Source: Eledone cirrhosa (Eukaryota). From it: 64,000 nt of DNA. This document shows, piece by piece, positions 1 through 39,004 of the stretch. Made by a program: the position numbers and the translations under genes. The stretch is taken from contig OZ024742.1 in the NCBI GenBank assembly GCA_964016885.1, positions 38,936,001 through 39,000,000 on the forward strand, read 5' to 3'. Below the pieces are notes generated by a model that had not been told where the DNA came from, made no database searches, and worked only from the letters and a program-made list of their open reading frames with translations. How positions within the stretch are numbered: position 1 is the stretch's first letter; every line of letters begins with the position of its first letter.

Positions 1-3000
1 ACAACCTTATTAACCATCTTGCCAACAACAACCTTATTAACCATCTTGCTAACAACAACCTTATTAACCATATTGCTAACAACAACATTATTAACCATCT
101 TGCCAACAACAACCTTATTAACCATCTTGCTAACAACAACCTTATTAACCATCTTGCCAACAACAACCTTATTAACCATCTTGCTAACAACAACCTTATT
201 AACCATCTTTCTAACAACAACTTTATTAACCATCTTGCCAACAACAACTTTATTAACCATCTTGCTAACAACAACCTTATTAACCATCTTGCCAACAACA
301 AACTTATTAACCATCTTGCTAACAACAACCTTATTAACCATCTTGCTAACAACAACCTTATTAACCATCTTGCCAACAACAACCTTATTAACCATCTTGC
401 CAACAACAACCTTATTAACCATCTTGACAACAAAAACCTTATTAACCATCTTGACAACAACAACCTTATTAACCATCTTGACAACAACAACCTTATTAAC
501 CATCTTGCCTACAACAACCTTATTAACCATCTTGCTAACAACAACCTTATTAACCATCTTGCTAACAACAACCTTATTAACCATCTTGACAACAACAACC
601 TTATTAACCATCTTGCCTACAACAACCTTATTAACCATCTTGCTAACAACAACCTTATTAACCATCTTGCCAACAACAGCCTTATTAACCATCTTGCTAA
701 CAACAACCTTATTAACCATCTTGCCAACAACAACCTTATTAACCATCTTGACAACAACAACCTTATTAACCATCTTGCTAACAACAACCTTATTAACCAT
801 CTTTCTAACAACAACTTTATTAACCATCTTGCTAACAACAACCTTATTAACCATCTTGCCAACAACAACCTTATTAACCATCTTGCCAACAACAACCTTA
901 TTAACCATCTTGACAACAACAACCTTATTAACCATCTTTCTAACAACAACATTATTAACCATCTTGCTAACAACAACCTTATTAACCATCTTGCCACCAA
1001 CAACCTTATTAACCATCTTCCCCAAAACAACCTTATTAACCATCTTGCTAACAACAACCTTATTAACCATCTTGCCAACAACAACCTTATTAACCATCTT
1101 GCTAACAACAACATTACTAACCATCTTGCCAACAACAACCTTATTAACCATCTTGCTAACAACAACCTTATTAACCATCTTGCTAACAACAACCTTATTA
1201 ACCATCTTGCCAACAACAACCTTATTAACCATCTTGCCAACAACAACCTTATTAACCATCTTGCCAACAACAACCTTATTAACCATCTTGCTAACAACAA
1301 CCTTATTAACCATCTTGCCAACAACAACCTTATTAACCATCTTGCCAACAACAACCTTATTAACCATCTTGCTAACAACAACCTTATTAACTATCTTGCC
1401 AACAACAACCTTATTAACCATCTTGCCAACAACAGCCTTATTAACCATCTTGCTAACAACAACCTTATTAACTATCTGGCCAACAACAACCTTATTAACC
1501 ATCTTGCCAACAACAACCTTATTAACCATCTTGCTAACAACAACCTTATTAACCATCTTTCTAACAACAACCTTATTAACCATCTTGCCAACAACAACCT
1601 TATTAACCATCTTGCTAACAACAACCTTATTAACCATCTTGCTAACAACAACCTTATTAACCATCTTGCTAACAACAACCTTGTTAACCATCTTGCCAAC
1701 AACAACCTTATTAACCATCTTGCCAACAACAACCTTATTAACCATCTTGCCAACAACAACCTTATTAACCATCTTGCTAACAACAACCTTATTAACCATC
1801 TTGCCAACAGCAATCTTATTACCCATCTTGCCAACAACAACCTTATTAACCATCTTGCTAACAACAACCTTATTAACCATCTTGCAAACAACAACCTTAT
1901 TAACCATCTTGCCAACAACAACCTTATTAACCATCTTGCTAACAACAACCTTATTAACCATCTTGCTAACAACAACATTATTAACCATCTTGCTAACAAC
2001 AACCTTATTAACCATCTTGCCAACAACAACCTTATTAACCATCTTGCCAACAACAACCTTATTAACAATCTTGCTAACAACAACCTTATTAACCATCTTG
2101 CTAATAACAACCTTATTAACCATCTTGCCAACAACAACCTTATTAACCATCTTGCTAACAACAAACTTATTAACCATCTTGCAACAACAACCTTATTAAC
2201 CATCTTGCCAACAACAACCTTATTAACCATCTTGCCAACAACAATCTTATTAACCATCTAGCTAACAACAATATTATTAACTATCTTGCCAACAACAACC
2301 TTATTAACCATCTTGCTAACAACAACCTTATTAACCATCTTGCCCACAACAACCTTATTAACCATCTTGCCAACAACAACCTTATTTACCATCTTGCTAA
2401 CAACAACCTTATTAACCATCTTGCCAACAACAACCTTATTAACCATCTTGCTAACAACAACCTTATTAACCATCTTGGCAACAACAACTTATTAACCATC
2501 TTGACAACAACAACCTTATTAACCATCTTGCTAACAACAAGCTTATTAACCATCTTGAAAACAACAACCTTATTAACCATCTTGCTAACAACAACCTTAT
2601 TAACCATATTGCTAACAACAACATTATTAACCATCTTGCTAACAACAACCTTATTAACCATCTTGCCAACAACAACCTTATTAACCATCTTGGTAACAAC
2701 AACCTTATTAACCATCTTGCCAACAACAATCTTATTAACCATCTAGCTAACAACAACATTATTAACCATATTGCTAACAACAACATTATTAACCATCTTG
2801 GTAACAACAACCTTATTAACCATCTTGCCAACAACAACCTTATTAACCATCTTGCTAACAACAACCTTATTAACCATATTGCTAACAACAACATTATTAA
2901 CCATCTTGCCAACAACAACCTTATTAACCATCTTGCTAACAACAACCTTATTAACCATCTTGCCAACAACAACCTTATTAACCATCTTGCTAACAACAAC

Positions 3001-6000
3001 CTTATTAACCATCTTTCTAACAACAACTTTATTAACCATCTTGCCAACAACAACTTTATTAACCATCTTGCTAACAACAACCTTATTAACCATCTTGCCA
3101 ACAACAAACTTATTAACCATCTTGCTAACAACAACCTTATTAACCATCTTGCTAACAACAACCTTATTAACCATCTTGCCAACAACAACCTTATTAACCA
3201 TCTTGCCAACAACAACCTTATTAACCATCTTGACAACAAAAACCTTATTAACCATCTTGACAACAACAACCTTATTAACCATCTTGACAACAACAACCTT
3301 ATTAACCATCTTGCCTACAACAACCTTATTAACCATCTTGCTAACAACAACCTTATTAACCATCTTGCTAACAACAACCTTATTAACCATCTTGACAACA
3401 ACAACCTTATTAACCATCTTGCCTACAACAACCTTATTAACCATCTTGCTAACAACAACCTTATTAACCATCTTGCCAACAACAGCCTTATTAACCATCT
3501 TGCTAACAACAACCTTATTAACCATCTTGCCAACAACAACCTTATTAACCATCTTGACAACAACAACCTTATTAACCATCTTGCTAACAACAACCTTATT
3601 AACCATCTTTCTAACAACAACTTTATTAACCATCTTGCTAACAACAACCTTATTAACCATCTTGCCAACAACAACCTTATTAACCATCTTGCCAACAACA
3701 ACCTTATTAACCATCTTGACAACAACAACCTTATTAACCATCTTTCTAACAACAACATTATTAACCATCTTGCTAACAACAACCTTATTAACCATCTTGC
3801 CACCAACAACCTTATTAACCATCTTCCCCAAAACAACCTTATTAACCATCTTGCTAACAACAACCTTATTAACCATCTTGCCAACAACAACCTTATTAAC
3901 CATCTTGCTAACAACAACATTACTAACCATCTTGCCAACAACAACCTTATTAACCATCTTGCTAACAACAACCTTATTAACCATCTTGCTAACAACAACC
4001 TTATTAACCATCTTGCCAACAACAACCTTATTAACCATCTTGCCAACAACAACCTTATTAACCATCTTGCCAACAACAACCTTATTAACCATCTTGCTAA
4101 CAACAACCTTATTAACCATCTTGCCAACAACCTTATTAACCATCTTGCCAACAACAACCTTATTAACCATCTTGCTAACAACAACCTTATTAACTATCTT
4201 GCCAACAACAACCTTATTAACCATCTTGCCAACAACAGCCTTATTAACCATCTTGCTAACAACAACCTTATTAACTATCTGGCCAACAACAACCTTATTA
4301 ACCATCTTGCCAACAACAACCTTATTAACCATCTTGCTAACAACAACCTTATTAACCATCTTTCTAACAACAACCTTATTAACCATCTTGCCAACAACAA
4401 CCTTATTAACCATCTTGCTAACAACAACCTTATTAACCATCTTGCTAACAACAACCTTATTAACCATCTTGCTAACAACAACCTTGTTAACCATCTTGCC
4501 AACAACAACCTTATTAACCATCTTGCCAACAACAACCTTATTAACCATCTTGCCAACAACAACCTTATTAACCATCTTGCTAACAACAACCTTATTAACC
4601 ATCTTGCCAACAGCAATCTTATTACCCATCTTGCCAACAACAACCTTATTAACCATCTTGCTAACAACAACCTTATTAACCATCTTGCAAACAACAACCT
4701 TATTAACCATCTTGCCAACAACAACCTTATTAACCATCTTGCTAACAACAACCTTATTAACCATCTTGCTAACAACAACATTATTAACCATCTTGCTAAC
4801 AACAACCTTATTAACCATCTTGCCAACAACAACCTTATTAACCATCTTGCCAACAACAACCTTATTAACAATCTTGCTAACAACAACCTTATTAACCATC
4901 TTGCTAATAACAACCTTATTAACCATCTTGCCAACAACAACCTTATTAACCATCTTGCTAACAACAAACTTATTAACCATCTTGCAACAACAACCTTATT
5001 AACCATCTTGCCAACAACAACCTTATTAACCATCTTGCCAACAACAATCTTATTAACCATCTAGCTAACAACAATATTATTAACTATCTTGCCAACAACA
5101 ACCTTATTAACCATCTTGCTAACAACAACCTTATTAACCATCTTGCCCACAACAACCTTATTAACCATCTTGCCAACAACAACCTTATTTACCATCTTGC
5201 TAACAACAACCTTATTAACCATCTTGCCAACAACAACCTTATTAACCATCTTGCTAACAACAACCTTATTAACCATCTTGGCAACAACAACTTATTAACC
5301 ATCTTGACAACAACAACCTTATTAACCATCTTGCTAACAACAAGCTTATTAACCATCTTGAAAACAACAACCTTATTAACCATCTTGCTAACAACAACCT
5401 TATTAACCATCTTGGTAACAACAACCTTATTAACCATCTTGCCAACAACAATCTTATTAACCATCTAGCTAACAACAACATTATTAACCATATTGCTAAC
5501 AACAACATTATTAACCATCTTGGTAACAACAACCTTATTAACCATCTTGCCAACAACAACCTTATTAACCATCTTGCTAACAACAACCTTATTAACCATA
5601 TTGCTAACAACAACATTATTAACCATCTTGCCAACAACAACCTTATTAACCATCTTGCTAACAACAACCTTATTAACCATCTTGCCAACAACAACCTTAT
5701 TAACCATCTTGCTAACAACAACCTTATTAACCATCTTTCTAACAACAACTTTATTAACCATCTTGCCAACAACAACTTTATTAACCATCTTGCTAACAAC
5801 AACCTTATTAACCATCTTGCCAACAACAAACTTATTAACCATCTTGCTAACAACAACCTTATTAACCATCTTGCTAACAACAACCTTATTAACCATCTTG
5901 CCAACAACAACCTTATTAACCATCTTGCCAACAACAACCTTATTAACCATCTTGACAACAAAAACCTTATTAACCATCTTGACAACAACAACCTTATTAA

Positions 6001-9000
6001 CCATCTTGACAACAACAACCTTATTAACCATCTTGCCTACAACAACCTTATTAACCATCTTGCTAACAACAACCTTATTAACCATCTTGCTAACAACAAC
6101 CTTATTAACCATCTTGACAACAACAACCTTATTAACCATCTTGCCTACAACAACCTTATTAACCATCTTGCTAACAACAACCTTATTAACCATCTTGCCA
6201 ACAACAGCCTTATTAACCATCTTGCTAACAACAACCTTATTAACCATCTTGCCAACAACAACCTTATTAACCATCTTGACAACAACAACCTTATTAACCA
6301 TCTTGCTAACAACAACCTTATTAACCATCTTTCTAACAACAACTTTATTAACCATCTTGCTAACAACAACCTTATTAACCATCTTGCCAACAACAACCTT
6401 ATTAACCATCTTGCCAACAACAACCTTATTAACCATCTTGACAACAACAACCTTATTAACCATCTTTCTAACAACAACATTATTAACCATCTTGCTAACA
6501 ACAACCTTATTAACCATCTTGCCACCAACAACCTTATTAACCATCTTCCCAAAAACAACCTTATTAACCATCTTGCTAACAACAACCTTATTAACCATCT
6601 TGCCAACAACAACCTTATTAACCATCTTGCTAACAACAACCTTATTAACCATCTTGCCAACAACAACCTTATTAACCATCTTGCTAACAACAACCTTATT
6701 AACCATCTTGCCAACAACAACATTATTAACCATCTTGACAACAACAAACTTATTAACCACTTGCTAACAACAACCTTATTAACCATCTTGCTAACAACAA
6801 AATTATTAACCATCTTGCCAACAACAACCTTATTAACCATCTTGCCAACAACAACCTTATTAACCATCTTGCCAACAACAACCTTATTAACCATCTTGCT
6901 AACAACAACATTACTAACCATCTTGCCAACAACAACCTTATTAACCATCTTGCTAACAACAACCTTATTAACCATCTTGCTAACAACAACCTTATTAACC
7001 ATCTTGCCAACAACAACCTTATTAACCATCTTGCCAACAACAACCTTATTAACCATCTTGCCAACAACAACCTTATTAACCATCTTGCTAACAACAACCT
7101 TATTAACCATCTTGCCAACAACAACCTTATTAACCATCTTGCCAACAACAACCTTATTAACCATCTTGCTAACAACAACCTTATTAACTATCTTGCCAAC
7201 AACAACCTTATTAACCATCTTGCCAACAACAGCCTTATTAACCATCTTGCTAACAACAACCTTATTAACTATCTGGCCAACAACAACCTTATTAACCATC
7301 TTGCCAACAACAACCTTATTAACCATCTTGCTAACAACAACCTTATTAACCATCTTTCTAACAACAACCTTATTAACCATCTTGCCAACAACAACCTTAT
7401 TAACCATCTTGCTAACAACAACCTTATTAACCATCTTGCTAACAACAACCTTATTAACCATCTTGCTAACAACAACCTTGTTAACCATCTTGCCAACAAC
7501 AACCATATTAACCATCTTGCCAACAACAACCTTATTAACCATCTTGCCAACAACAACCTTATTAACCATCTTGCTAACAACAACCTTATTAACCATCTTG
7601 CCAACAGCAATCTTATTACCCATCTTGCCAACAACAACCTTATTAACCATCTTGCTAACAACAACCTTATTAACCATCTTGCAAACAACAACCTTATTAA
7701 CCATCTTGCCAACAACAACCTTATTAACCATCTTGCTAACAACAACCTTATTAACCATCTTGCTAACAACAACATTATTAACCATCTTGCTAACAACAAC
7801 CTTATTAACCATCTTGCCAACAACAACCTTATTAACCATCTTGCCAACAACAACCTTATTAACAATCTTGCTAACAACAACCTTATTAACCATCTTGCTA
7901 ATAACAACCTTATTAACCATCTTGCCAACAACAACCTTATTAACCATCTTGCTAACAACAAACTTATTAACCATCTTGCAACAACAACCTTATTAACCAT
8001 CTTGCCAACAACAACCTTATTAACCATCTTGCCAACAACAATCTTATTAACCATCTAGCTAACAACAATATTATTAACTATCTTGCCAACAACAACCTTA
8101 TTAACCATCTTGCTAACAACAACCTTATTAACCATCTTGCCCACAACAACCTTATTAACCATCTTGCCAACAACAACCTTATTTACCATCTTGCTAACAA
8201 CAACCTTATTAACCATCTTGCCAACAACAACCTTATTAACCATCTTGCTAACAACAACCTTATTAACCATCTTGGCAACAACAACTTATTAACCATCTTG
8301 ACAACAACAACCTTATTAACCATCTTGCTAACAACAAGCTTATTAACCATCTTGAAAACAACAACCTTATTAACCATCTTGCTAACAACAACCTTATTAA
8401 CCATATTGCTAACAACAACATTATTAACCATCTTGCTAACAACAACCTTATTAACCATCTTGCCAACAACAACCTTATTAACCATCTTGGTAACAACAAC
8501 CTTATTAACCATCTTGCCAACAACAATCTTATTAACCATCTAGCTAACAACAACATTATTAACCATATTGCTAACAACAACATTATTAACCATCTTGGTA
8601 ACAACAACCTTATTAACCATCTTGCCAACAACAACCTTATTAACCATCTTGCTAACAACAACCTTATTAACCATATTGCTAACAACAACATTATTAACCA
8701 CTTGCTAACAACAACCTTATTAACCATCTTGCCAACAACAACATTATTAACCATCTTGCTAACAACAACCTTATTAACCATCTTGCCAACAACAACCTTA
8801 TTAACCATCTTGCCAACAACAGCCTTATTAACCATCTTGCTAACAACAACCTTATTAACCATCTTGCCAACAACAACCTTATTAACCATCTTGCTAACAA
8901 CAACCTTATTAACCATCTTGCCAACAACAACCTTATTAACCATCTTGCTAACAACAACCTTGTTAACCATCTTGCCAACAACAACCTTATTAACCATCTT

Positions 9001-12000
9001 GCCAACAACAACCTTATTAACCATCTTGCCAACAACAACCTTATTAACCATCTTGCTAACAACAACCTTATTAACCATCTTGCCAACAGCAACCTTATTA
9101 ACCATCTTGCCAACAACAACCTTATTAACCATCTTGCTAACAACAACCTTATTAACCATCTTGCCAACAGCAATCTTATTACCCATCTTGCCAACAACAA
9201 CCTTATTAACCATCTTGCTAACAACAACCTTATTAACCATCTTGCAAACAACAACCTTATTAACCATCTTGCCAACAACAACCTTATTAACCATCTTGCT
9301 AACAACAACCTTATTAACCATCTTGCTAACAACAACATTATTAACCATCTTGCTAACAACAACCTTATTAACCATCTTGCCAACAACAACCTTATTAACC
9401 ATCTTGCCAACAACAACCTTATTAACAATCTTGCTAACAACAACCTTATTAACCATCTTGCTAATAACAACCTTATTAACCATCTTGCCAACAACAACCT
9501 TATTAACCATCTTGCTAACAACAAACTTATTAACCATCTTGCAACAACAACCTTATTAACCATCTTGCCAACAACAACCTTATTAACCATCTTGCCAACA
9601 ACAATCTTATTAACCATCTAGCTAACAACAATATTATTAACTATCTTGCCAACAACAACCTTATTAACCATCTTGCTAACAACAACCTTATTAACCATCT
9701 TGCCCACAACAACCTTATTAACCATCTTGCCAACAACAACCTTATTTACCATCTTGCTAACAACAACCTTATTAACCATCTTGCCAACAACAACCTTATT
9801 AACCATCTTGCTAACAACAACCTTATTAACCATCTTGGCAACAACAACTTATTAACCATCTTGACAACAACAACCTTATTAACCATCTTGCTAACAACAA
9901 GCTTATTAACCATCTTGAAAACAACAACCTTATTAACCATCTTGCTAACAACAACCTTATTAACCATCTTGGTAACAACAACCTTATTAACCATCTTGCC
10001 AACAACAATCTTATTAACCATCTAGCTAACAACAACATTATTAACCATATTGCTAACAACAACATTATTAACCATCTTGGTAACAACAACCTTATTAACC
10101 ATCTTGCCAACAACAACCTTATTAACCATCTTGCTAACAACAACCTTATTAACCATATTGCTAACAACAACATTATTAACCATCTTGCCAACAACAACCT
10201 TATTAACCATCTTGCTAACAACAACCTTATTAACCATCTTGCCAACAACAACCTTATTAACCATCTTGCTAACAACAACCTTATTAACCATCTTTCTAAC
10301 AACAACTTTATTAACCATCTTGCCAACAACAACTTTATTAACCATCTTGCTAACAACAACCTTATTAACCATCTTGCCAACAACAAACTTATTAACCATC
10401 TTGCTAACAACAACCTTATTAACCATCTTGCTAACAACAACCTTATTAACCATCTTGCCAACAACAACCTTATTAACCATCTTGCCAACAACAACCTTAT
10501 TAACCATCTTGACAACAAAAACCTTATTAACCATCTTGACAACAACAACCTTATTAACCATCTTGACAACAACAACCTTATTAACCATCTTGCCTACAAC
10601 AACCTTATTAACCATCTTGCTAACAACAACCTTATTAACCATCTTGCTAACAACAACCTTATTAACCATCTTGACAACAACAACCTTATTAACCATCTTG
10701 CCTACAACAACCTTATTAACCATCTTGCTAACAACAACCTTATTAACCATCTTGCCAACAACAGCCTTATTAACCATCTTGCTAACAACAACCTTATTAA
10801 CCATCTTGCCAACAACAACCTTATTAACCATCTTGACAACAACAACCTTATTAACCATCTTGCTAACAACAACCTTATTAACCATCTTTCTAACAACAAC
10901 TTTATTAACCATCTTGCTAACAACAACCTTATTAACCATCTTGCCAACAACAACCTTATTAACCATCTTGCCAACAACAACCTTATTAACCATCTTGACA
11001 ACAACAACCTTATTAACCATCTTTCTAACAACAACATTATTAACCATCTTGCTAACAACAACCTTATTAACCATCTTGCCACCAACAACCTTATTAACCA
11101 TCTTCCCAAAAACAACCTTATTAACCATCTTGCTAACAACAACCTTATTAACCATCTTGCCAACAACAACCTTATTAACCATCTTGCTAACAACAACCTT
11201 ATTAACCATCTTGCCAACAACAACCTTATTAACCATCTTGCTAACAACAACCTTATTAACCATCTTGCCAACAACAACATTATTAACCATCTTGACAACA
11301 ACAAACTTATTAACCACTTGCTAACAACAACCTTATTAACCATCTTGCTAACAACAAAATTATTAACCATCTTGCCAACAACAACCTTATTAACCATCTT
11401 GCCAACAACAACCTTATTAACCATCTTGCCAACAACAACCTTATTAACCATCTTGCTAACAACAACATTACTAACCATCTTGCCAACAACAACCTTATTA
11501 ACCATCTTGCTAACAACAACCTTATTAACCATCTTGCTAACAACAACCTTATTAACCATCTTGCCAACAACAACCTTATTAACCATCTTGCCAACAACAA
11601 CCTTATTAACCATCTTGCCAACAACAACCTTATTAACCATCTTGCTAACAACAACCTTATTAACCATCTTGCCAACAACAACCTTATTAACCATCTTGCC
11701 AACAACAACCTTATTAACCATCTTGCTAACAACAACCTTATTAACTATCTTGCCAACAACAACCTTATTAACCATCTTGCCAACAACAGCCTTATTAACC
11801 ATCTTGCTAACAACAACCTTATTAACTATCTGGCCAACAACAACCTTATTAACCATCTTGCCAACAACAACCTTATTAACCATCTTGCTAACAACAACCT
11901 TATTAACCATCTTTCTAACAACAACCTTATTAACCATCTTGCCAACAACAACCTTATTAACCATCTTGCTAACAACAACCTTATTAACCATCTTGCTAAC

Positions 12001-15000: not shown

Positions 15001-18000
15001 TATTAACCATCTTGCCAACAACAACGTTATTAACCATCTTGCTAACAACAACCTTATTAACCATCTTTCTAACAACAACTTTATTAACCATCTTGCCAAC
15101 AACAACCTTATTAACCATCTTGCTAACAACAACCTTATTAACCATCTTGCCAACAACAACCTTATTAACCATCTTTCTAACAACAACTTTATTAACCATC
15201 TTGCTAACAACAACCTTATTAACCATCTTGCCAACAACAACCTTATTAACCATCTTGCCAACAACAACCTTATTAACCATCTTGCTAACTACAACCTTAT
15301 TAACCATCTTGCCAACAACAGCCTTATTAACCATCTTGCTAACAACAACGTTATTAACCATCTTGCCAACAACAACCTTATTAACCATCTTGCTAACAAC
15401 AACCTTATTAACCATCTTTCTAACAACAACTTTATTAACCATCTTGCCAACAACAACTTTATTAACCATCTTGCTAACAACAACCTTATTAACCATCTTG
15501 CCAACAACAAACTTATTAACCATCTTGCTAACAACAACCTTATTAACCATTTTGCTAACAACAACCTTATTAACCATCTTGCCAACAACAACCTTATTAA
15601 CCATCTTGACAACAACAACCTTATTAACCATCTTGCTAACAACAACCTTATTAACCTTCTTTCTAACAACAACTTTATTAACCATCTTGCTAACAACAAC
15701 CTTATTAACCATCTTGCCAACAACAACCTTATTAACCATCTTGCCAACAACAACCTTATTAACCATCTTGACAATAACAACCTTATTAACCATCTTTCTA
15801 ACAACAACATTATTAACCATCTTGCTAACAACAACCTTATTAACCATCTTGCCAACAACAACCTTATTAACCATCTTGCCAACAACAACCTTATTAACCA
15901 TCTTGCTAACAACAACCTTATTAACCATCTTGCCAACAACAACCTTATTAACCATCTTGCTAACAACAACCTTATTAACCATCTTGCTAACAACAACCTT
16001 ATTAACCATCTTGCCAACAACAACCTTATTAACCATCTTGCCAACAACAACCTTATTAACCATCTTGCCAACAACAACCTTATTAACCATCTTGCTAACA
16101 ACAACCTTATTAACCATCTTGCCAACAACAACCTTATTAACCATCTTGCCAACAACCTTATTAACCATCTTGCCAACAACAGCCTTATTAACCATCTTGC
16201 TAACAATAACCTTATTAACCATCTTGCCAACAACAACCTTATTAACCATCTTGCTAACAACAACCTTATTAACCATCTTGCCAACAACAACCTTATTAAC
16301 CATCTTGCTAACAACAACCTTATTAACCATCTTGCCAACAACAAGCTTATTAACCATCTTGCTAACAACAACCGTATTAACCATCTTGCCAACAACAACC
16401 TTATTTACCATCTTGCCAACAACAACCTTATTAACCATCTTGCCAACAACAACCTTATTAACCATCTTGCTAACAACAACCTTATTAACCATTTTGCCAA
16501 CAACAACCTTATTAACCATCTTGCCAACAACAACCTTATTAACCATCTTGCTAACAACAACCTTATTAACCATCTTGCAAACAACAACCTTATTAACCAT
16601 CTTGCAAACAAGAACCTTATTAACCATCTTGCTAACAACAACCTTATTAACCATCTTGCTAACAACAACCTTATTAACCATCTTGCTAACAACAACCTTA
16701 TTAACCATCTTGCTAACAACAACCTCATTAACCATCTTGCTAATAACAACCTTATTAACCATCTTGCCAACAACAACCTTATTAACCATCTTGCTAACAA
16801 CAACCTTATTAACCATCTTGCCAACAGCAATCTTATTACCCATCTTGCCAACAACAACCTTATTAACCATCTTGCTAACAACAACCTTATTAACCATCTT
16901 GCAAACAACAACCTTATTAACCATCTTGCCAACAACAACCTTATTAACCATCTTGCTAACAACAACCTTATTAACCATCTTGCTAACAACAACATTATTA
17001 ACCATCTTGCTAACAACAACCTTATTAACCATCTTGCCAACAACAACCTTATTAACCATCTTGCCAACAACAACCTTATTAACAATCTTGCTAACAACAA
17101 CCTTATTAACCATCTTGCTAATAACAACCTTATTAACCATCTTGCCAACAACAACCTTATTAACGATCTTGCTAACAACAAACTTATTAACCATCTTGCA
17201 ACAACAACCTTATTAACCATCTTGCCAACAACAACCTTATTAACCATCTTGCCAACAACAACCTTATTAACCATCTTGCTAACAACAACCTTATTAACCA
17301 TCTTGCCAACAACAACCTTATTAACCATCTTGCCAACAACGTTATTAACCATCTTGCCAACAACAGCCTTATTAACCATCTTGCTAACAATAACCTTATT
17401 AACCATCTTGCCAACAACAACCTTATTAACCATCTTGCTAACAACAACCTTATTAACCATCTTGCCAACAACAACCTTATTAACCATCTTGCTAACAACA
17501 ACCTTATTAACCATCTTGCCAACAACAAGCTTATTAACCATCTTGCTAACAACAACCGTATTAACCATCTTGCCAACAACAACCTTATTTACCATCTTGC
17601 CAACAACAACCTTATTAACCATCTTGCCAACAACAACCTTATTAACCATCTTGCTAACAACAACCTTATTAACCATTTTGCCAACAACAACCTTATTAAC
17701 CATCTTGCCAACAACAACCTTATTAACCATCTTGCTAACAACAACCTTATTAACCATCTTGCAAACAACAACCTTATTAACCATCTTGCAAACAAGAACC
17801 TTATTAACCATCTTGCTAACAACAACCTTATTAACCATCTTGCTAACAACAACCTTATTAACCATCTTGCTAACAACAACCTTATTAACCATCTTGCTAA
17901 CAACAACCTCATTAACCATCTTGCTAATAACAACCTTATTAACCATCTTGCCAACAACAACCTTATTAACCATCTTGCTAACAACAACCTTATTAACCAT

Positions 18001-21000
18001 CTTGCCAACAGCAATCTTATTACCCATCTTGCCAACAACAACCTTATTAACCATCTTGCTAACAACAACCTTATTAACCATCTTGCAAACAACAACCTTA
18101 TTAACCATCTTGCCAACAACAACCTTATTAACCATCTTGCTAACAACAACCTTATTAACCATCTTGCTAACAACAACATTATTAACCATCTTGCTAACAA
18201 CAACCTTATTAACCATCTTGCCAACAACAACCTTATTAACCATCTTGCCAACAACAACCTTATTAACAATCTTGCTAACAACAACCTTATTAACCATCTT
18301 GCTAATAACAACCTTATTAACCATCTTGCCAACAACAACCTTATTAACGATCTTGCTAACAACAAACTTATTAACCATCTTGCAACAACAACCTTATTAA
18401 CCATCTTGCCAACAACAACCTTATTAACCATCTTGCCAACAACAATCTTATTAACCATCTAGCTAACAACAATATTATTAACTATCTTGCCAACAACAAC
18501 CTTATTAACCATCTTGCTAACAACAACCTTATTAACCATCTTGCCCACAACAACCTTATTAACCATCTTGCCAACAACAACCTTATTTACCATCTTGCTA
18601 ACAACAACCTTATTAACCATCTTGCCAACAACAACCTTATTAACCATCTTGCTAACAACAACCTTATTAACCATCTTGGCAACAACAACTTATTAACCAT
18701 CTTGACAACAACAACCTTATTAACCATCTTGCTAACAACAAGCTTATTAACCATCTTGAAAACAACAACCTTATTAACCATCTTGCTAACAACAACCTTA
18801 TTAACCATATTGCTAACAACAACATTATTAACCATCTTGCTAACAACAACCTTATTAACCATCTTGCCAACAACAACCTTATTAACCATCTTGGTAACAA
18901 CAACCTTATTAACCATCTTGCCAACAACAATCTTATTAACCATCTAGCTAACAACAACATTATTAACCATATTGCTAACAACAACATTATTAACCATCTT
19001 GGTAACAACAACCTTATTAACCATCTTGCCAACAACAACCTTATTAACCATCTTGCTAACAACAACCTTATTAACCATATTGCTAACAACAACATTATTA
19101 ACCACTTGCTAACAACAACCTTATTAACCATCTTGCCAACAACAGCATTATTAACCATCTTGCTAACAACAACCTTATTAACCATCTTGCCAACAACAAC
19201 CTTATTAACCATCTTGCCAACAACAGCCTTATTAACCATCTTGCTAACAACAACCTTATTAACCATCTTGCCAACAACAACCTTATTAACCATCTTGCTA
19301 ACAACAACCTTATTAACCATCTTGCCAACAACAACCTTATTAACCATCTTGCTAACAACAACCTTGTTAACCATCTTGCCAACAACAACCTTATTAACCA
19401 TCTTGCCAACAACAACCTTATTAACCATCTTGCCAACAACAACCTTATTAACCATCTTGCTAACAACAACCTTATTAACCATCTTGCCAACAGCAATCTT
19501 ATTACCCATCTTGCCAACAACAACCTTATTAACCATCTTGCTAACAACAACCTTATTAACCATCTTGCAAACAACAACCTTATTAACCATCTTGCCAACA
19601 ACAACCTTATTAACCATCTTGCTAACAACAACCTTATTAACCATCTTGCTAACAACAACATTATTAACCATCTTGCTAACAACAACCTTATTAACCATCT
19701 TGCCAACAACAACCTTATTAACCATCTTGCCAACAACAACCTTATTAACAATCTTGCTAACAACAACCTTATTAACCATCTTGCTAATAACAACCTTATT
19801 AACCATCTTGCCAACAACAACCTTATTAACCATCTTGCTAACAACAAACTTATTAACCATCTTGCAACAACAACCTTATTAACCATCTTGCCAACAACAA
19901 CCTTATTAACCATCTTGCCAACAACAATCTTATTAACCATCTAGCTAACAACAACATTATTAACCATCTTGCCAACAACAACCTTATTAACCATCTTGCT
20001 AACAACAACCTTATTAACCATCTTGCCCACAACAACCTTATTAACCATCTTGCCAACAACAACCTTATTTACCATCTTGCTAACAACAACCTTATTAACC
20101 ATCTTGCCAACAACAACCTTATTAACCATCTTGCTAACCACAACCTTATTAACCATCTTGGCAACAACAACTTATTAACCATCTTGACAACAACAACCTT
20201 ATTAACCATCTTGCTAACAACAACCTTATTAACCATCTTGAAAACAACAACCTTATTAACCATCTTGCTAACAACAACCTTATTAACCATATTGCTAACA
20301 ACAACATTATTAACCATCTTGCTAACAACAACCTTATTAACCATCTTGCCAACAACAACCTTATTAACCATCTTGGTAACAACAACCTTATTAACCATCT
20401 TGCCAACAACAATCTTATTAACCATCTAGCTAACAACAACATTATTAACCATATTGCTAACAACAACATTATTAACCATCTTGGTAACAACAACCTTATT
20501 AACCATCTTGCCAACAACAACCTTATTAACCATCTTGCTAACAACAACCTTATTAACCATATTGCTAACAACAACATTATTAACCATCTTGCTAACAACA
20601 ACCTTATTAACCATCTTGCCAACAACAACATTATTAACCATCTTGCTAACAACAACCTTATTAACCATCTTGCCAACAACAACCTTATTAACCATCTTGC
20701 CAACAACAGCCTTATTAACCATCTTGCTAACAACAACCTTATTAACCATCTTGCCAACAACAACCTTATTAACCATCTTGCTAACAACAACCTTATTAAC
20801 CATCTTGCCAACAACAACCTTATTAACCATCTTGCTAACAACAACCTTATTAACCATCTTGCCAACAACAACGTTATTAACCATCTTGCTAACAACAACC
20901 TTATTAACCATCTTTCTAACAACAACTTTATTAACCATCTTGCCAACAACAACCTTATTAACCATCTTGCTAACAACAACCTTATTAACCATCTTGCCAA

Positions 21001-24000
21001 CAACAACCTTATTAACCATCTTTCTAACAACAACTTTATTAACCATCTTGCTAACAACAACCTTATTAACCATCTTGCCAACAACAACCTTATTAACCAT
21101 CTTGCCAACAACAACCTTATTAACCATCTTGCTAACTACAACCTTATTAACCATCTTGCCAACAACAGCCTTATTAACCATCTTGCTAACAACAACGTTA
21201 TTAACCATCTTGCCAACAACAACCTTATTAACCATCTTGCTAACAACAACCTTATTAACCATCTTTCTAACAACAACTTTATTAACCATCTTGCCAACAA
21301 CAACTTTATTAACCATCTTGCTAACAACAACCTTATTAACCATCTTGCCAACAACAAACTTATTAACCATCTTGCTAACAACAACCTTATTAACCATTTT
21401 GCTAACAACAACCTTATTAACCATCTTGCCAACAACAACCTTATTAACCATCTTGACAACAACAACCTTATTAACCATCTTGCTAACAACAACCTTATTA
21501 ACCTTCTTTCTAACAACAACTTTATTAACCATCTTGCTAACAACAACCTTATTAACCATCTTGCCAACAACAACCTTATTAACCATCTTGCCAACAACAA
21601 CCTTATTAACCATCTTGACAATAACAACCTTATTAACCATCTTTCTAACAACAACATTATTAACCATCTTGCTAACAACAACCTTATTAACCATCTTGCC
21701 AACAACAACCTTATTAACCATCTTGCCAACAACAACCTTATTAACCATCTTGCTAACAACAACCTTATTAACCATCTTGCCAACAACAACCTTATTAACC
21801 ATCTTGCTAACAACAACCTTATTAACCATCTTGCTAACAACAACCTTATTAACCATCTTGCCAACAACAACCTTATTAACCATCTTGCCAACAACAACCT
21901 TATTAACCATCTTGCCAACAACAACCTTATTAACCATCTTGCTAACAACAACCTTATTAACCATCTTGCCAACAACAACCTTATTAACCATCTTGCCAAC
22001 AACCTTATTAACCATCTTGCCAACAACAGCCTTATTAACCATCTTGCTAACAATAACCTTATTAACCATCTTGCCAACAACAACCTTATTAACCATCTTG
22101 CTAACAACAACCTTATTAACCATCTTGCCAACAACAACCTTATTAACCATCTTGCTAACAACAACCTTATTAACCATCTTGCCAACAACAAGCTTATTAA
22201 CCATCTTGCTAACAACAACCTTATTAACCATCTTGCCAACAACAACCTTATTTACCATCTTGCCAACAACAACCTTATTAACCATCTTGCCAACAACAAC
22301 CTTATTAACCATCTTGCTAACAACAACCTTATTAACCATTTTGCCAACAACAACCTTATTAACCATCTTGCCAACAACAACCTTATTAACCATCTTGCTA
22401 ACAACAACCTTATTAACCATCTTGCAAACAAGAACCTTATTAACCATCTTGCTAACAACAACCTTATTAACCATCTTGCTAACAACAACCTTATTAACCA
22501 TCTTGCTAACAACAACCTTATTAACCATCTTGCTAACAACAACCTCATTAACCATCTTGCTAATAACAACCTTATTAACCATCTTGCCAACAACAACCTT
22601 ATTAACCATCTTGCTAACAACAAACTTATTAACCATCTTGCAACAACAACCTTATTAACCATCTTGCCAACAACAACCTTATTAACCATCTTGCTAACAA
22701 CAACCTTATTAACCATCTTTCTAACAACAACTTTATTAACCATCTTGCTAACAACAACCTTATTAACCATCTTGCCAACAACAACCTTATTAACCATCTT
22801 GCTAACAACAACCTTATTAACCATCTTGCTAACAACAACCTTATTAACCATCTTGCCAACAACAACCTTATTAACCATCTTGCTAACAACAACCTTATTA
22901 ACCATCTTGCCAACAACAACCTTATTAACCATCTTGCTAACAACAACCTTATTAACTATCTTGCTAACAACAACCTTATTAACCATCTTGCCAACAACAG
23001 CCTTATTAACCATCTTGCTAACAACAACCTTATTAACCATCTTGCCAACAACAACCTTATTAACCATCTTGCTAACAACAACCTTATTAACCATCTTGCC
23101 AACAACAACGTTATTAACCATCTAGCCAACAACAACCTTATTAACCATCTTGCCAACAACAACCTTATTAACCATCTTGCTAATAACAACCTTATTAACC
23201 ATCTTGCCAACAACAACCTTATTAACCATCTTTCTAACAACAACTTTATTAACCATCTTGCTAACAACAACCTTATTAAGCATCTTGCCAACAACAACCT
23301 TATTAACCATCTTGCCAACAACAACCTTATTAACCATCTTGCTAACTACAACCTTATTAACCATCTTGCCAACAACAGCCTTATTAACCATCTTGCTAAC
23401 AACAACGTTATTAACCATCTTGCCAACAACAACCTTATTAACCATCTTGCCAACAACAACCTTATTAACCATCTTGCTAACAACAACCTTATTAACCATC
23501 TTTCTAACAACAACTTTATTAACCATCTTGCCAACAGCAACCTTATTAACCATCTTGCTAACAACAACCTTATTAACCATCTTGCCAACAACAACCTTAT
23601 TAACCATCTTGCTAACAACAACCTTCTTAACCATCTTTCTAACAACAACTTTATGAACCATCTTGCAACAACAACCTTATTAACCATCTTGCCAACAACA
23701 ACCTTATTAACCATCTTGCTAACAACAACCTTATTAACCATCTTTCTAACAACAACTTTATTAACCATCTTGCTAACAACAACCTTATTAACCATCTTGC
23801 CAACAACAACCTTATTAACCATCTTGCTAACAACAACCTTATTAACCATCTTGCTAACAACAACCTTATTAACCATCTTGCCAACAACAACCTTATTAAC
23901 CATCTTGCTAACAACAACCTTATTAACCATCTTGCCAACAACAACCTTATTAACCATCTTGCTAACAACAACCTTATTAACTATCTTGCTAACAACAACC

Positions 24001-25648
24001 TTATTAACCATCTTGCCAACAACAACAACCTTATTAACCATCTTGCCAACAACAACCTTATTATCCATCTTGCTAACTACAACCTTATTAACCATCTTTC
24101 CAACAACAACCTTATTAACCATCTTGCTAACAACAACCTTATTAACCATCTTGCCAACAACAACGTTATTAACCATCTAGCCAACAACAACGTTATTAAC
24201 CATCTTGCCAACAACAACCTTATTAACCATCTTGCTAACAACAACCTTATTAACCATCTTGCCAACAACAACCTTATTAACCATCTTTGTAACAACAACT
24301 TTATTAACCATCTTGCTAACAACAACCTTATTAAGCATCTTGCCAACAACAACCTTATTAACCATCTTGCCAACAACAACCTTATTAACCATCTTGCTAA
24401 CTACAACCTTATTAACCATCTTGCCAACAACAGCCTTATTAACCATCTTGCTAACAACAACGTTATTAACCATCTTGCCAACAACAACCTTATTAACCAT
24501 CTTGCCAACAACAACCTTATTAACCATCTTGCTAACAACAATCTTATTAACCATCTTTCTAACAACAACTTTATTAACCATCTTGCCAACAGCAACCTTA
24601 TTAACCATCTTGCTAACAACAACCTTATTAACCATCTTGCCAACAACAACCTTATTAACCATCTTGCTAACAACAACCTTATTAACCATCTTTCTAACAA
24701 CAACTTTATGAACCATCTTGCCAACAACAACCTTATTAACCATCTTGCTAACAACAACCTTATTAACCATCTTGCCAACAACAACCTTATTAACCATCTT
24801 GCTAACAACAACCTTATTAACCATCTTGCTAACAACAACCTTATTAACCATCTTGCCAACAACAACCTTATTAACCATCTTGCTAACAACAACCTTATTA
24901 ACCATCTTGCTAACAACAACATTATTAACCATCTTGCCAACAACAACCTTATTAACCATCTTGCAACAACAACCTTATTAACCATCTTGCCAACAACAAC
25001 CTTATTAACCATCTTGCTAACAACAACCTTATTAACCATCTTGACAACAACAACCTTATTAACCATCTTGCTATCAACATCCTTATTAACCATCTTGCCA
25101 ACAACAACTTTATTAACCATCTTGCCAACAACAACCTTATTAACCATCTTGCTAACAACAACCTTATGAACCATCTTGCCAACAACAACCTTATTAACCA
25201 TCTTGCTAACAACAACCTTATTAACCATCTTGCTAACAACAACCTTATTAACCATCTTGCCAACAACAACCTTATTAACCATCTTGACAACAACAACCTT
25301 ATTAACCATCTTCCCAAAAACAACCTTATTAACCTTCTAGCTAACAACAACCTTATTAACCATCTTGCTAACAACAACCTTATTAACCATCTTGCCAACA
25401 ACAACCTTATTAACCATCTTGCTAACAACAACCTTATTAACCATCTTGACAACAACAACCTTATTAACCATCTTGACAACAACAACCTTATTAACCATCT
25501 TCCCAACAACAACCTTATTAACCATCTTGCTAACAACAACCTTATTAACCATCTTGCCAACAACAACCTTATTAACCATCTTGCTAACAAAACCTTATTA
25601 ACCATCTTGCCAACAACAACCTTATTAACCATCTTGACAACAACAACC
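1..25648. repeat. 27-bp minisatellite array (consensus AACAACAACCTTATTAACCATCTTGCY), roughly 950 units, open at the left window edge
   Basis: Uninterrupted tandem 27-mers with GCC/GCT dimorphism and occasional 24-, 26- and 30-bp indel units. It ends at ...GACAACAACAACC|CTGAGCAC. All long ORFs here are translations of the repeat. Confidence 0.99.
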
Positions 25649-27641
25649 CTGAGCACCTTTTTGATCTCCATGTGTCTAACACACGTGGACATGCCCACAA
25701 AGTCAGATAACAGCACAGTGACCTTGACTTTCGGGAACATTTTTTCACGCCCAGAGTTGCTGAAGCATGGAACAAACTACCTGCATCAGTTGTTAGCTGT
25801 CGAGACACTGCATCATTTAATACCTCCATGGAACAAACTACCTGCATCAGTTGTTAGCTGTCGAGACACCGCATCCTTTAAAACCTCCATGGAACCAACT
25901 ACCTGCATCAGTTGTTAGCTGTCGAGACACTGCATCCTTTAAAACCTCCATGGAACAAACTATCTGCATCAGTTGTTAGCTGTCGAGACACTGCATCCTT
26001 TAAAACCTCCATGGAACAAACTACCTGCAGCAGTTGTTAGCTGTTGAGACACTGCATCCTTTAATACCTCCATGGAACAAACTAGCTGCATCAGTTGTTA
26101 GCTGTCGAGACACCGCATCCTTTAAAACCTCCATGGAACAAACTACCTGCATCAGTTGTTAGCTGTCGAGACACTGCATCCCTTAAAACCTCCATGGAAC
26201 AAACTACCTGCATCAGTTGTTAGCTGTCGAGACACTGCATCCTTTAATACCTCCATGGAACAAACTACCTGCATCAGTTGTTAGCTGTCGAGACACTGCA
26301 TCCTTTAAAACCTCCATGGAACAAACTACCTGCATCAGTTGTTAGCTGTCGAGACACTGCATCCTTTAATACCTCCATGGAACAAACTACCTGCATTAGT
26401 TGTTAGCTGTCGAGACACTGCATCCTTTAAAACCTCCATGGAACAAACTACCTGCATCAGTTGTTAGCTGTCGAGACACTGCATCCTTTAAAACCTCAAT
26501 GGAACAAACTACCTGCATCAGTTGTTAGCTGTCGAGACACTGCATCCTTTAATACCTCCATGGAACAAACTACCTGCATCAGTTGTTAGCTGTCGAGACA
26601 CTGCATCCTTTAAAACCTTCATGGAACAAACTACCTGCATCAGTTGTTAGCTGTCGAGACACTGCATCCTTTAAAACCTCCATGGAACAAACTACCTGCA
26701 GAAGTTGTTAGCTGTCGAGACACTACACCCTTTAATACCTCCATGGAACAAACTACCTGCATCAGTTGTTAGCTGTCGAGACACTGCATCCTTTAAAACC
26801 TCCATGGAAAAAACTACCTGCAGCAGTTGTTAGCTGTCGAGACACTGCATCCTTCAAAATCTCCATGGAACAAACTACCTGCATCAGTTGTTAGCTGTCG
26901 AGACACTGCATCCTTTAATACCTCCATGGAACAAACTACCTGCATCAGTTGTTAGCTGTCGAGACACTGCATCCTTTAAAACCTCCATGGAACAAACTAC
27001 CTGCAGCAGTTGTTAGCTGTCGAGACACTGCATCCTTTAAAACCTCCATGGAACAAACTACCTGCATCAGTTGTTAGCTGTCGAGACACTGCATCCCTTA
27101 AAACCTCCATGGAACAAACTACATGAATCAGTTGTTAGCTGTCGAGACACTGCATCCTTTAATACCTCCATGGAACAAACTACCTGCATCAGTTGTTAGC
27201 TGTCGAGACACTGCATCCTTTAAAACCTCCATGGAACAAACTACCTGCATCAGTTGTTAGCTGTCGAGACACCGCATCCTTTAAAACCTCCATGGAACAA
27301 ACTACCTGCATCAGTTGTTATCTGTCGAGTCACTGCATCCTTTAAAACCTCCATGGAACAAACTACCTGCATCAGTTGTTAGCTGTCGAGACACTGCATC
27401 CTTTAAAACCTCCATGGAACAAACTACCTGCATCAGTTGTTAGCTGTCGAGACACTGCATCCTTTAAAACCTCCATGCTTCCTGAAAGTTGTCAACACTA
27501 CACCTGATATCCCCTCTCCATACACACATGCATATCATGACTCATACACTGTTCACTTTCCTGACATATATACTACACATGCACTTTTGACGAGTTGTAG
27601 TGCACGTGAGCACTGTACACAATAATTTCATAATTATTATT
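25621..27641 (+). mobile_element. 3' end of a CR1/L2-group LINE (ORF2 C-terminus, 3' UTR, short (ATT)n tail) containing the 61-bp array
   Basis: Frame from 25621 reads LINHLDNNNPEHLFDLHVSNTRGHAHKVR*QHSDLDFREHFFTPRVAEAWNKLPASVVSCRDTASF, matching the CR1 ORF2 end motif TRGH..K....R..FF..RV...WN.LP..VV.....SFK. After the array it resumes MLPESCQHYT* (TGA 27505-27507). Premature TAA at 25708. Confidence 0.88.
25766..27477. repeat. 61-bp minisatellite, 28 units (CATGGAACAAACTACCTGCATCAGTTGTTAGCTGTCGAGACACTGCATCCTTTAAAACCTC)
   Basis: First CATG at 25766, last at 27474; 1708 bp = 28 x 61, with only scattered substitutions. Confidence 0.98.
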
Positions 27642-33552: not shown

Positions 33553-33651
33553 TGCTAAGGCATATAAACAGGCGTTGATTTACCAAAATGTTGGGGTTTT
33601 TATCCGTCGTAAATATTCATCCCCTATTTCGTCAATAATACGTAGTATTTC

Positions 33652-33927
33652 TGTTGTATGGACTGGGAATCGAGCTCACAACCTCATTGTTGTGTGGACT
33701 GTTGGATTTCTATTCAATTTGCACGTGCTCGCACATTTGCATATGGATCACGTGACCTGGGCGGTCAGTCAGCGTTGGTGTTAAAAACTCGGTCACAGAC
33801 TGCCACTGACTTACTTTATGTTATTCTGCTACTGCGAGGAAGGGCGTTTTGGTTGTTTTGCAAATTACACAAATTATTTGATATAACTCGTTGTGTTTTC
33901 TCTGCGAGTACTGAGAGGAATACAACA
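33652..33927 (+). repeat. 5' LTR (276 bp)
   Basis: TG...CA termini with 7-bp terminal inverted repeats; differs from the 3' LTR by about 5 transitions and a 12-bp indel. Confidence 0.95.
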
Positions 33928-34011
33928 GAGTTTATTGGCGTCGCCGATAGGATTTACCTACATTGCTGATAGGATTTACCTACATTGCCGGGAAATTGTT
34001 TATCACAAAAA

Positions 34012-38175: not shown

Positions 38176-38210
38176 TGCTTCTTTTGTCGCATCAATTTCG
38201 GTGGGGGAGG

Positions 38211-38474
38211 TGTTGTATGGACTGGGAATCGAGCTCACAACCTCATTGTTGTGTGGACTGTTGGATTTCTATTCAATTTGCACGTGCTCGCACATTTGCA
38301 TATGGATCACGTGACCTGGGCGGTCAGTCAGCATTGGTGTCACAGACTGTCACTGACTTACTTTATGTTATTCTGCTACTGCGAGGAGGGGCGTTTTGGT
38401 TGTTTCGCAAATTACACAAATTATTTGATATAACTCGTTGTGTTTTCTCTGCGAGTACCGAGAGGAATACAACA
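38211..38474 (+). repeat. 3' LTR (264 bp)
   Basis: Direct repeat of 33652-33927, preceded by the PPT and followed by the TSD. Confidence 0.95.
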
Positions 38475-39004
38475 ATTTCATTATTTGGTTTTTTATTCAC
38501 CATTGTCATTTTAACACGTTCAGCCAGAGAGATATTTATACATGAGTTAATTTCTCTCTGGAAGATTTCGTTGAGGGAAATTTTCAATTGTTTATACTTT
38601 TGATTATCATTATCGATAGTATTTTCCACAACAGTCGATGTAGACTCGGATGGTATATGTGGTGTCACATTTATTCGATTATTATTATTATTTCTTCGAT
38701 TATTATTATTATCGATAGTGTTTTCCCCAGCATTCGAGGTAGACTTAGATGGTACAGGTGGTGTCAAGTTTCTTACAGGCATAGTTGTTTCAAGGCGCTG
38801 TTCGATCTGGCTGCTAGGAAGTCTAGTAGCATGGCGATCTGTAGCACGTGTTGTTGATTCCATGTTTGTTGTGGGGGACTTACAATTAATAATATTTATC
38901 TTATTTTTACGTTCAACAAACGTCGCTTGTTGGCGTAATTGTTTCGCTGTGAAATAATTTGGCTCTGGGTGCATTTCGTCCCAGTGTAGTTTCATTCTAT
39001 TCAT
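38475..39004 (-). pseudogene. N-terminal part of the R4-like ORF (probably 5' truncated)
   Basis: YMNRMKLHWDEMHPE...QLRQQA resembles R4-clade N-termini. It joins EILRIIDE...TFW*INACLYALAMTVK across the Gypsy insertion. Confidence 0.75.

What the first reader, a model, noticed from the sequence alone, without database searches (positions are those of the whole stretch)
1..27641. One CR1-type LINE copy seeded two different satellites from its own ORF2
Seen: the 27-bp unit reads LINHL(A/D)NNN and its last copy runs in frame into PEHLFDLHVSNTRGH...WNKLP. About 118 bp later the WNKLP...SFKTSM segment is itself repeated 28 times before the ORF ends. Known: this is the CR1/L2 ORF2 C-terminal motif. 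Inferred: a 25-kb-plus satellite and a 1.7-kb minisatellite were both born in situ inside one element, a rare readable record of satellite birth.
Basis: partly seen in the sequence, partly recalled or inferred. Interest (0 to 1): 0.8.

Follow-up and report, generated by a model that had tools for sequence, protein, structure and literature searches.

The report
Jumping-gene stub grew two tandem arrays
A short broken copy of a common jumping gene holds two tandem arrays made from its own sequence: a 65,000-base array found only here, and a smaller one that recurs at the same spot in about 850 sister copies and likely spreads between copies by DNA repair near chromosome ends.

Summary
Both arrays are real and both derive from the ORF2 tail of a CR1-like LINE. 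The 27-bp array is larger than seen: 2,420 units, 65.3 kb. Its junction occurs only here, and 29 of 29 other copies carry one 27-mer. The left flank is not upstream ORF2: the copy is 5'-truncated within 3 bases of the first unit, so this array was born in place.

The 61-bp array is not a one-off. The same duplication sits in 854 copies against 5,102 single-unit copies. It crosses subfamilies and concentrates near chromosome ends (86 of 98 versus 17 of 51 on the three largest chromosomes).

In subfamily B the junction is usually foreign (88 loci versus 17 loci with a B-type junction), and candidate donors lie nearby. This suggests copies acquire the junction from other arrays by ectopic conversion and then expand locally. 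Whether this copy did so is not shown.

Transposon-derived satellites and subtelomeric expansion are known (frog, grass pea, maize). The scan earlier noted a CR1-tail satellite in a shark. Five literature searches found no description of junction transfer between dispersed LINE copies.

The parts
1..25648 (+). Right 39% of a 65.3-kb, 2,420-unit satellite of a 27-bp ORF2 segment (codons for I-N-H-L-A-N-N-N); it continues left to G000:C3:38896363, where the LINE copy is 5'-truncated against unique DNA
   Evidence: unique in the genome; 106 unit types, mean pairwise difference 5.9%, exact repeated blocks up to 249 units; left junction bridged by a contig
25649..25765 (+). Single-copy ORF2 segment (PEHLF...RVAEA), with an in-frame TAA at 25708-25710
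   Evidence: 92-94% identical to the 39 best other copies; 8 of 117 differences from the majority of fetched single-unit copies
25762..25771 (+). Left arm of a 10-bp inverted repeat (GAAGCATGGA) whose CATG core is also the direct repeat at which the 61-bp unit starts
   Evidence: sequence; stem present in the centroid fold of a single-unit copy, but z = -1.23, not exceptional
25766..27473 (+). 61-bp minisatellite, 28 units (WNKLP...SFKTS), 17 unit types; the same array sits at this position in about 850 other family copies
27472..27481 (+). Right arm of the inverted repeat (TCCATGCTTC)
   Evidence: sequence
27474..27629 (+). Last ORF2 codons (MLPESCQHYT, stop at 27505-27507) and 3' UTR of the LINE
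27630..27641 (+). Degenerate (ATT)n tail, the 3' end of the element

Best explanation
This is a 5'-truncated stub of a CR1-like LINE whose first 27 bases were duplicated here, likely during or soon after integration, and grew into a unique 65-kb satellite, while its 61-bp array is a family-wide minisatellite whose head-to-tail junction was likely copied in from another array and then expanded locally. Shown: LINE origin of both units; the 27-mer array starts within 3 bases of the truncation and exists nowhere else; it grew mostly by kilobase block duplications; the 61-bp array occurs in 854 copies across subfamilies, mainly near chromosome ends and off the largest chromosomes; marked subfamilies carry foreign junctions. 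Inferred: (1) the first 27-bp duplication was an end-joining by-product at the 5' junction. (2) A break or staggered nick in a single-unit copy is repaired on a nearby array, so a short donor tract spanning the junction is inserted in register and the recipient's own half-units are duplicated, giving a dimer. (3) Unequal exchange and conversion in recombination-rich distal DNA then lengthen the array. The founding 61-bp junction most likely arose by a template switch between the two CATG repeats at the base of the 10-bp stem. For the window's own copy the donor cannot be identified, because it belongs to the unmarked majority type.
For: 27-mer: single in 29 of 29 other copies; all junction matches lie in this locus; left flank unique and bridged by a contig; 82% of units lie in exact repeats of 20 or more units, while both ends do not. 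In 172 fetched locus records (some overlapping) I found three other one-off duplications of ORF2 sequence of 31 bp or more: L145 (31 bp x2) exactly at its 5' end, L192 (43 bp x4) about 34 nt inside it, and L186 (55 bp x2) internal. 61-mer: 854 versus 5,102 loci. A tree of non-array flanks of 74 copies needs 16 changes of array state, at least 5 forced by well-supported branches, and 0 of 200 bootstrap trees had one origin. Within 40 Mb of an end on C1-C3: 86 of 98 arrays versus 17 of 51 matched single-unit copies, Fisher p = 1.8e-11 (C2 and C3 counted by hand from the listings). Share on C1-C3: 98 of 854 versus 51 of 89. Interior arrays are dimers in 10 of 11 fetched; 60 distal ones have a median of 8.5 units or more. 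Junction import: 5 of 5 B-background arrays fetched from the anchor-based searches have non-B internal junctions (three of them were picked for fetching by their B-type first unit, not by their junction). Genome-wide, 88 B-ended arrays have a non-B last junction against 44 B-type junctions in 17 loci, with 1,777 single-unit B copies available. Nearby donors: a rare unit variant has 15 matches genome-wide, 10 of them in three loci within C1:29.07-31.31 Mb, one being the foreign tract in B copy L077. At C12:36.31 Mb a mosaic copy with B2-type junctions abuts a B2 array. 7 of the 17 B-junction loci lie in 11 Mb of C12.
Against: No recombination map was available, so 'distal = high recombination' is borrowed from other animals (PMC10794172). 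3 of 5 GG-background arrays have GG in every unit, which local duplication explains as well as homogenisation after import. In many B arrays the foreign tract is only 2-6 informative bases and the copy's own private variants are duplicated (L202, L207, L228); a single clean break repaired by synthesis-dependent annealing would not give this, so staggered nicks or a double template switch must be assumed. In B1 copies the two foreign bases could also be templated by the other arm of the stem. Some B-type junctions exist (17 loci). L080 and L136, on different chromosomes, share a dimer plus about 195 bp of flank, so some dimers move with the element. The 27-bp junction has no microhomology, and its link to integration rests on 3 of 4 cases. 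The 30 loci were selected by a pattern that required a non-B junction, so they are not an unbiased count. Patterns are exact, so all counts are lower bounds.
Confidence: 0.62

Rival explanations
1. Each 61-bp array, including this one, arose independently in place by slippage between the two CATG repeats at the base of the 10-bp hairpin.
For: Exact CATG direct repeats nested in a 10-bp inverted repeat. Arrays are much rarer in subfamily B, whose stem is 8 bp (about 100 array loci versus 1,777 singles). Some arrays share private variants in nearly all units (L131, L133, L142). The T-at-55 variant is in 8 of 28 window units but in at most 2 units of any other fetched array.
Against: B-ended arrays carry non-B junctions in 88 loci versus 17 loci with B junctions. 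In B2 copies the foreign bases cannot come from the copy itself or from the stem. The reciprocal 61-bp deletion has 0 matches. The stem is not unusually stable (z = -1.23).
Confidence: 0.2
2. The 61-bp array is carried by retrotransposition: array-bearing source elements (like the VNTR of SVA, recalled) made array-bearing copies, and chimeras come from reverse-transcriptase switching between RNAs.
For: A dimer changes only the last 9 residues of ORF2 (MLPEIRQHYT* to MEQTTCISC*), so the protein could still work. L080 and L136 share a dimer across chromosomes. Some array-bearing copies reach more than 3 kb upstream (L189, L191). Template jumping is known for R2 (PMC2718515, passage).
Against: Array copies do not form a clade. 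Single-unit copies of the same types are spread along whole chromosomes (34 of 51 interior; 69 of the first 100 B singles on C1 lie beyond 40 Mb), but all 6 B chimeras on C1-C3 and 86 of 98 arrays are distal. An event at insertion should not depend on position in this way. Candidate donors are genomic neighbours.
Confidence: 0.14
3. The 27-bp array is an assembly artefact, or an unrelated satellite that landed next to the LINE.
For: Exact repeated blocks up to 6.7 kb could hide errors in copy number. The left flank is not ORF2.
Against: The unit matches the family's ORF2 at the expected position and frame. The junction occurs nowhere else. Contigs from public runs hold multi-unit pieces at about 190 times single-copy depth and bridge the left junction.
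Confidence: 0.03

Closest known systems
Xenopus tropicalis subtelomeric minisatellites from SINE/tRNA-V (52 bp) and LINE/CR1 (PMC10794172; passages read; a word search of its text-held supplements found nothing, and one scanned file could not be searched)
   Same: A fixed segment of a dispersed retroelement is expanded only in distal copies, while intact copies are spread genome-wide; attributed to subtelomeric recombination.
   Different: There the example is a SINE 3' segment and, in the passages read, no transfer of junctions between copies is described. Here it is a coding ORF2 segment, with subfamily markers that show foreign junctions and nearby donors.
Maize CRM1TR/CRM4TR tandem repeats from centromeric retrotransposons (PMC3648361; passages read)
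   Same: Retrotransposon-derived tandem repeats; monomer ends replaced by another subfamily's sequence through gene conversion; growth by non-allelic conversion proposed.
   Different: LTR elements, two centromeric loci, with little or no movement of repeats reported between them. Here there are hundreds of dispersed loci and the junction itself appears to be transferred to single-unit copies.
Ogre-derived satellites of Lathyrus sativus (PMC7004042; passages read)
   Same: Short arrays inside dispersed retroelements occasionally expand into long satellites at particular chromosome regions.
   Different: LTR elements, 3' UTR arrays carried by the element, expansion at primary constrictions rather than chromosome ends.
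Chicken HinfI (SCR1) repeat with CR1 ORF2 and 3' UTR; PROsat and common cetacean satellite from L1 (as listed in review PMC9659126; passages read)
   Same: Satellite built from LINE ORF2 or 3' sequence, CR1 included.
   Different: Established satellites with long monomers; the 27-mer here is a single-locus array still joined to its parent stub.
Human GC-rich minisatellites such as MS32, MS31 and CEB1 (recalled, not read here)
   Same: Distal clustering; conversion-like transfer of repeat blocks with duplication of recipient repeats beside the insert.
   Different: Transfer is between alleles of one locus; here it appears to be between different loci sharing LINE homology.

Membership tests
CR1 clade of non-LTR retrotransposons | ORF2 with apurinic-type endonuclease followed by reverse transcriptase | tested here: met
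   Sister copy L183 has an 841-residue frame with Exo_endo_phos_2 (3.5e-12) and RVT_1 (7.9e-39) that ends in the window's C-terminal motif
CR1 clade of non-LTR retrotransposons | 3' end of short tandem repeats rather than poly(A); frequent 5' truncation; no regular target-site duplication | tested here: met
   (ATT)n tails and no consistent duplication in 75 copies with both ends defined
CR1 clade of non-LTR retrotransposons | ORF1 upstream, often with a PHD or esterase domain (recalled) | tested here: inconclusive
   A Cys-rich frame upstream of ORF2 in L183 looks PHD-like by eye, but no Pfam hit at E 0.05
CR1 clade of non-LTR retrotransposons | RT phylogeny groups it with reference CR1 rather than L2, Crack or Daphne | not tested
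   No tree with named references was built. The best named hits among the 120 listed are bird RT proteins at 33-40% identity; that bird LINEs are mostly CR1 is recalled
Satellite DNA (single-locus, transposon-derived) | Long head-to-tail array of a monomer traceable to a dispersed element | tested here: met
   2,420 units, 65.3 kb; monomer present once in family copies
Satellite DNA (single-locus, transposon-derived) | Higher-order or block structure from unequal exchange | tested here: met
   52 exact runs of 40 or more units, longest 249; irregular offsets, so blocks rather than one regular higher-order repeat
Satellite DNA (single-locus, transposon-derived) | Heterochromatic or centromeric state | not testable with these tools
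   No chromatin data
Recombination-associated distal minisatellites (frog SINE/tRNA-V type) | Arrays restricted to distal copies while single-unit copies are dispersed | tested here: met
   86 of 98 versus 17 of 51, p = 1.8e-11
Recombination-associated distal minisatellites (frog SINE/tRNA-V type) | Correlation with measured recombination rate | not testable with these tools
   No genetic map for G000

The most novel reading that the evidence does not exclude
The 61-bp minisatellite behaves as a contagious repeat: its junction arose once or a few times and has spread to some 850 already-inserted LINE copies by short, in-register ectopic conversion from neighbouring arrays, so the LINE family acts as a genome-wide landing pad for a satellite that never needs to be born again. 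The same locus also records a second route, a 5'-junction duplication grown into a 65-kb satellite.
Probability: 0.45. Interest if true: 0.72.

Novelty: new variant of a known kind. Interest (0 to 1): 0.52.

Why it matters
Why the same segment of a transposon turns into a minisatellite in hundreds of separate copies is usually put down to repeated slippage or to inheritance from the source element. Here subfamily markers make the question countable, and they point to a third route: transfer of the junction between copies. That would be a direct way for a satellite to colonise new loci and chromosomes, and it would give a sequence record of ectopic conversion tracts and of where recombination is high in a 3-Gb animal genome. 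The 27-bp array is a clean single-locus record of satellite birth with its parent still attached. No function for the host is shown or implied.

Tried and rejected
Upstream ORF2 at the left flank: absent. A target-site duplication (AAATT at both ends of the window copy): rejected as uninformative, because the family shows no regular duplications and chance AT-rich matches of 4-7 bases are the norm. The arrays as a coding repeat protein: rejected; stop codon and frameshifts, no Pfam hit for the window fragments. Reciprocal 61-bp deletion: 0 matches with one exact 23-base pattern. A strong hairpin as the cause: the stem folds but is not better than shuffles (one of the four folds, L016:1-60, was irrelevant). 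A rare 60-bp unit confined to C13:13.13-13.69 Mb (14 matches) first looked like transfer between neighbours, but those copies also share private variants outside the array, so they are local duplicates and do not count. L078 and L229 also share a flanking variant, so only L077 counts as a recipient there. L067 and L101 were left out of the tree because the anchor picked a neighbouring element; copies lacking a closed array, a 3' end or upstream homology were also dropped (74 rows kept). One search was laid inside the array by my coordinate error; it shows multi-unit contigs in runs X1, X2 and X3 but not the junction. X1 and X2 do not cover the flank and RAD reads X5 show only single-unit family copies, so presence of the array in other individuals or species is open. 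Literature: searches (listings and abstract starts only, apart from the five papers cited) found no description of junction transfer among dispersed LINE copies; searches, aimed by an unverified guess at the animal group, found no description of this family. Subscription journals are mostly not covered. Look-ups of earlier scan findings by place and by sequence returned nothing.
Full report
Observation. The window opens inside a 27-bp array that runs to 25648, followed by 117 bp of single-copy sequence, 28 copies of a 61-bp unit (25766-27473), a short 3' region and an (ATT)n-like tail ending at 27641. The window is G000:C3:38936001-39000000 of a 3.0-Gb genome.

The parent element. The spacer matches many dispersed copies at 92-94%. 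Two of 13 copies followed upstream share 4.15 kb. One has an 841-residue frame with endonuclease and RT domains ending in ...KIVNHLANNNPEYLF...WNKLPASVVSCQDTASFKASMLPEIRQHYT. The best named relatives are bird RT proteins at 33-40%. Copies end in (ATT)n, are mostly 5'-truncated and lack regular target-site duplications (75 copies). It works like a CR1 LINE. I did not build a reference tree, so clade membership is likely rather than proven.

The 27-bp satellite. All 29 other copies inspected carry the 27-mer once. The array continues 39.6 kb left of the window, 65,286 bp and 2,420 units in all. Two junction patterns give 1,492 and 649 matches genome-wide, and all lie in this locus. The left flank is unique DNA: the element begins three bases before unit 1. 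Seven of 75 other copies are truncated within 143-151 nt of the same anchor, against 147 here, so this is an ordinary truncation point. A contig from run X3 crosses the junction without mismatch at depth 7.6, and multi-unit contigs reach depth 1,460.

How the 27-mer array grew. It has 106 unit types and a mean pairwise difference of 5.9%. 82% of units lie in exact repeats of 20 or more units (longest 249 units, 6.7 kb), while the two ends are not repeated. That points to an older, smaller array enlarged by recent kilobase duplications in the middle. The junction has no microhomology. Two of three other one-off ORF2 duplications found in 172 locus records lie at or within about 34 nt of a 5' end, which suggests, on few cases, that the first duplication was a by-product of 5' joining.

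The 61-bp minisatellite is a family trait. A pattern for entry into two or more units gives 854 loci; the matching single-unit pattern gives 5,102. The unit lies between two CATG repeats that are the cores of a 10-bp inverted repeat. The stem folds but is not exceptional, and the reciprocal deletion was not found. On a tree of non-array flanks, array copies fall in several subfamilies (16 changes, at least 5 forced; some clustering remains, shuffled mean 23).

Position. Arrays avoid the interiors of large chromosomes. 86 of 98 on C1-C3 are within 40 Mb of an end, against 17 of 51 exact single-unit copies of the window's type (p = 1.8e-11). Only 98 of 854 arrays lie on C1-C3, against 51 of 89 singles. 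Ten of 11 interior arrays fetched are dimers; the 60 distal ones have a median of 8.5 units, some cut by the fetched range. The window's copy is 39 Mb from the end of C3.

Foreign junctions. Subfamily B differs in the last bases of the unit and has 1,777 single-unit copies spread along chromosomes. Self-duplication would give B-type junctions. Instead, 5 of 5 B-background arrays fetched from anchor-based searches have non-B internal junctions and keep the B end only in the last unit. Genome-wide, 88 B-ended arrays have a non-B last junction, against 44 B-type junctions in 17 loci, five of which are one tandem duplication. Of 30 of the 88 examined, 29 are non-B at every internal junction and one is mixed; this set was selected for a non-B last junction, and one lacks a B flank. 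L127 holds three foreign units bracketed by its own half-units. The reverse also occurs: GG-type ends in non-GG copies (L074, L108, L132) and non-GG ends in GG copies (L019, L135).

Nearby donors. The foreign tract in L077 carries a variant with 15 matches in the genome, 9 of them in two arrays 1.3 and 2.2 Mb away. At C12:36.31 Mb a mosaic copy with B2 junctions directly abuts a B2 array. A similar-looking cluster on C13 was rejected as local duplication.

Mechanism. The simplest reading is that a single-unit copy gains a junction by in-register repair on another array, becomes a dimer, and expands where recombination is frequent. Donor tracts are often short and the recipient's own variants are duplicated, which needs staggered nicks or two template switches; similar patterns are recalled from human minisatellites, not checked here. 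Against a purely conversion-driven story: 3 of 5 GG arrays are uniform, some B-type junctions exist, and one dimer has moved with its element (L080 and L136), which is plausible because a dimer alters only the last nine residues of ORF2. For the window's copy, local growth is indicated by a variant in 8 of 28 units that is rare elsewhere, but the source of its first junction cannot be read.

Comparison with what is known. Satellites from LINE ORF2, CR1 included, are listed in PMC9659126 (passages). Distal-only expansion of a retroelement segment is described in frogs (PMC10794172, passages; supplement word search empty). Expansion of retroelement arrays at particular regions is described in grass pea (PMC7004042, passages). 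Conversion between subfamilies inside retrotransposon-derived repeats is described in maize, with little movement between loci (PMC3648361, passages). Variable 5' junctions and template jumping are described for R1 and R2 (PMC2718515, passages). An earlier scan note reports a CR1-tail satellite in a shark that proved family-wide (not checked here). Searches showed no report of junction transfer among hundreds of dispersed LINE copies.

Verdict. The locus is a new variant of a known kind; its interest lies in the countable evidence that a minisatellite spreads between LINE copies. Interest 0.52.

Noticed in passing
window 31054-33579 (-) and 49189-51729 (+): Two copies of another non-LTR element, 98.6% identical over 2,675 bp and in opposite orientation, each with an open RT frame of about 845 residues (RVT_1 4.1e-23 for the one scanned) ending in a CCHC-like motif; by eye a restriction-like-endonuclease clade.
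   Followed up: partly
window about 33650-38475: LTR retrotransposon-like element with 276-bp direct repeats 93.8% alike and a pol region split over several frames (RNase H and integrase zinc-finger hits), lying next to the first RT copy. Described only.
   Followed up: partly
window 62638-63087 (-): Fragment with a zf-RVT hit (E 7e-4), likely the C-terminus of an L1/Tx1-type element.
   Followed up: no
window 54704-54889: A 46-bp unit in 4 copies, 97% alike; origin not examined.
   Followed up: no
L145:854-914, L192:2854-3027, L186:1191-1303: One-off tandem duplications of ORF2 sequence in sister copies (31 bp x2 at the 5' end, 43 bp x4 near the 5' end, 55 bp x2 internal). L145 also has a 28-unit 61-bp array.
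   Followed up: yes
L098, L102, L127, L128, L215: Several subfamily-B copies carry a tandem duplication of about 130 bp of the 3' UTR and tail.
   Followed up: no
G000:C4:99.147-99.173 Mb (L167-L176): A five-unit 61-bp array is itself repeated at least five times at 5.5-8.6 kb spacing, i.e. inside a larger tandem duplication.
   Followed up: partly
L080 (C1:332.36 Mb) and L136 (C3:235.68 Mb): Two loci share about 195 bp of non-LINE flank plus a truncated LINE with a 61-bp dimer, 95% alike over 678 bp, as if a composite was retroposed.
   Followed up: partly
L183:3145-3254: ORF1 of the family contains a 48-51-bp Gln-rich repeat in 2-3 copies.
   Followed up: no
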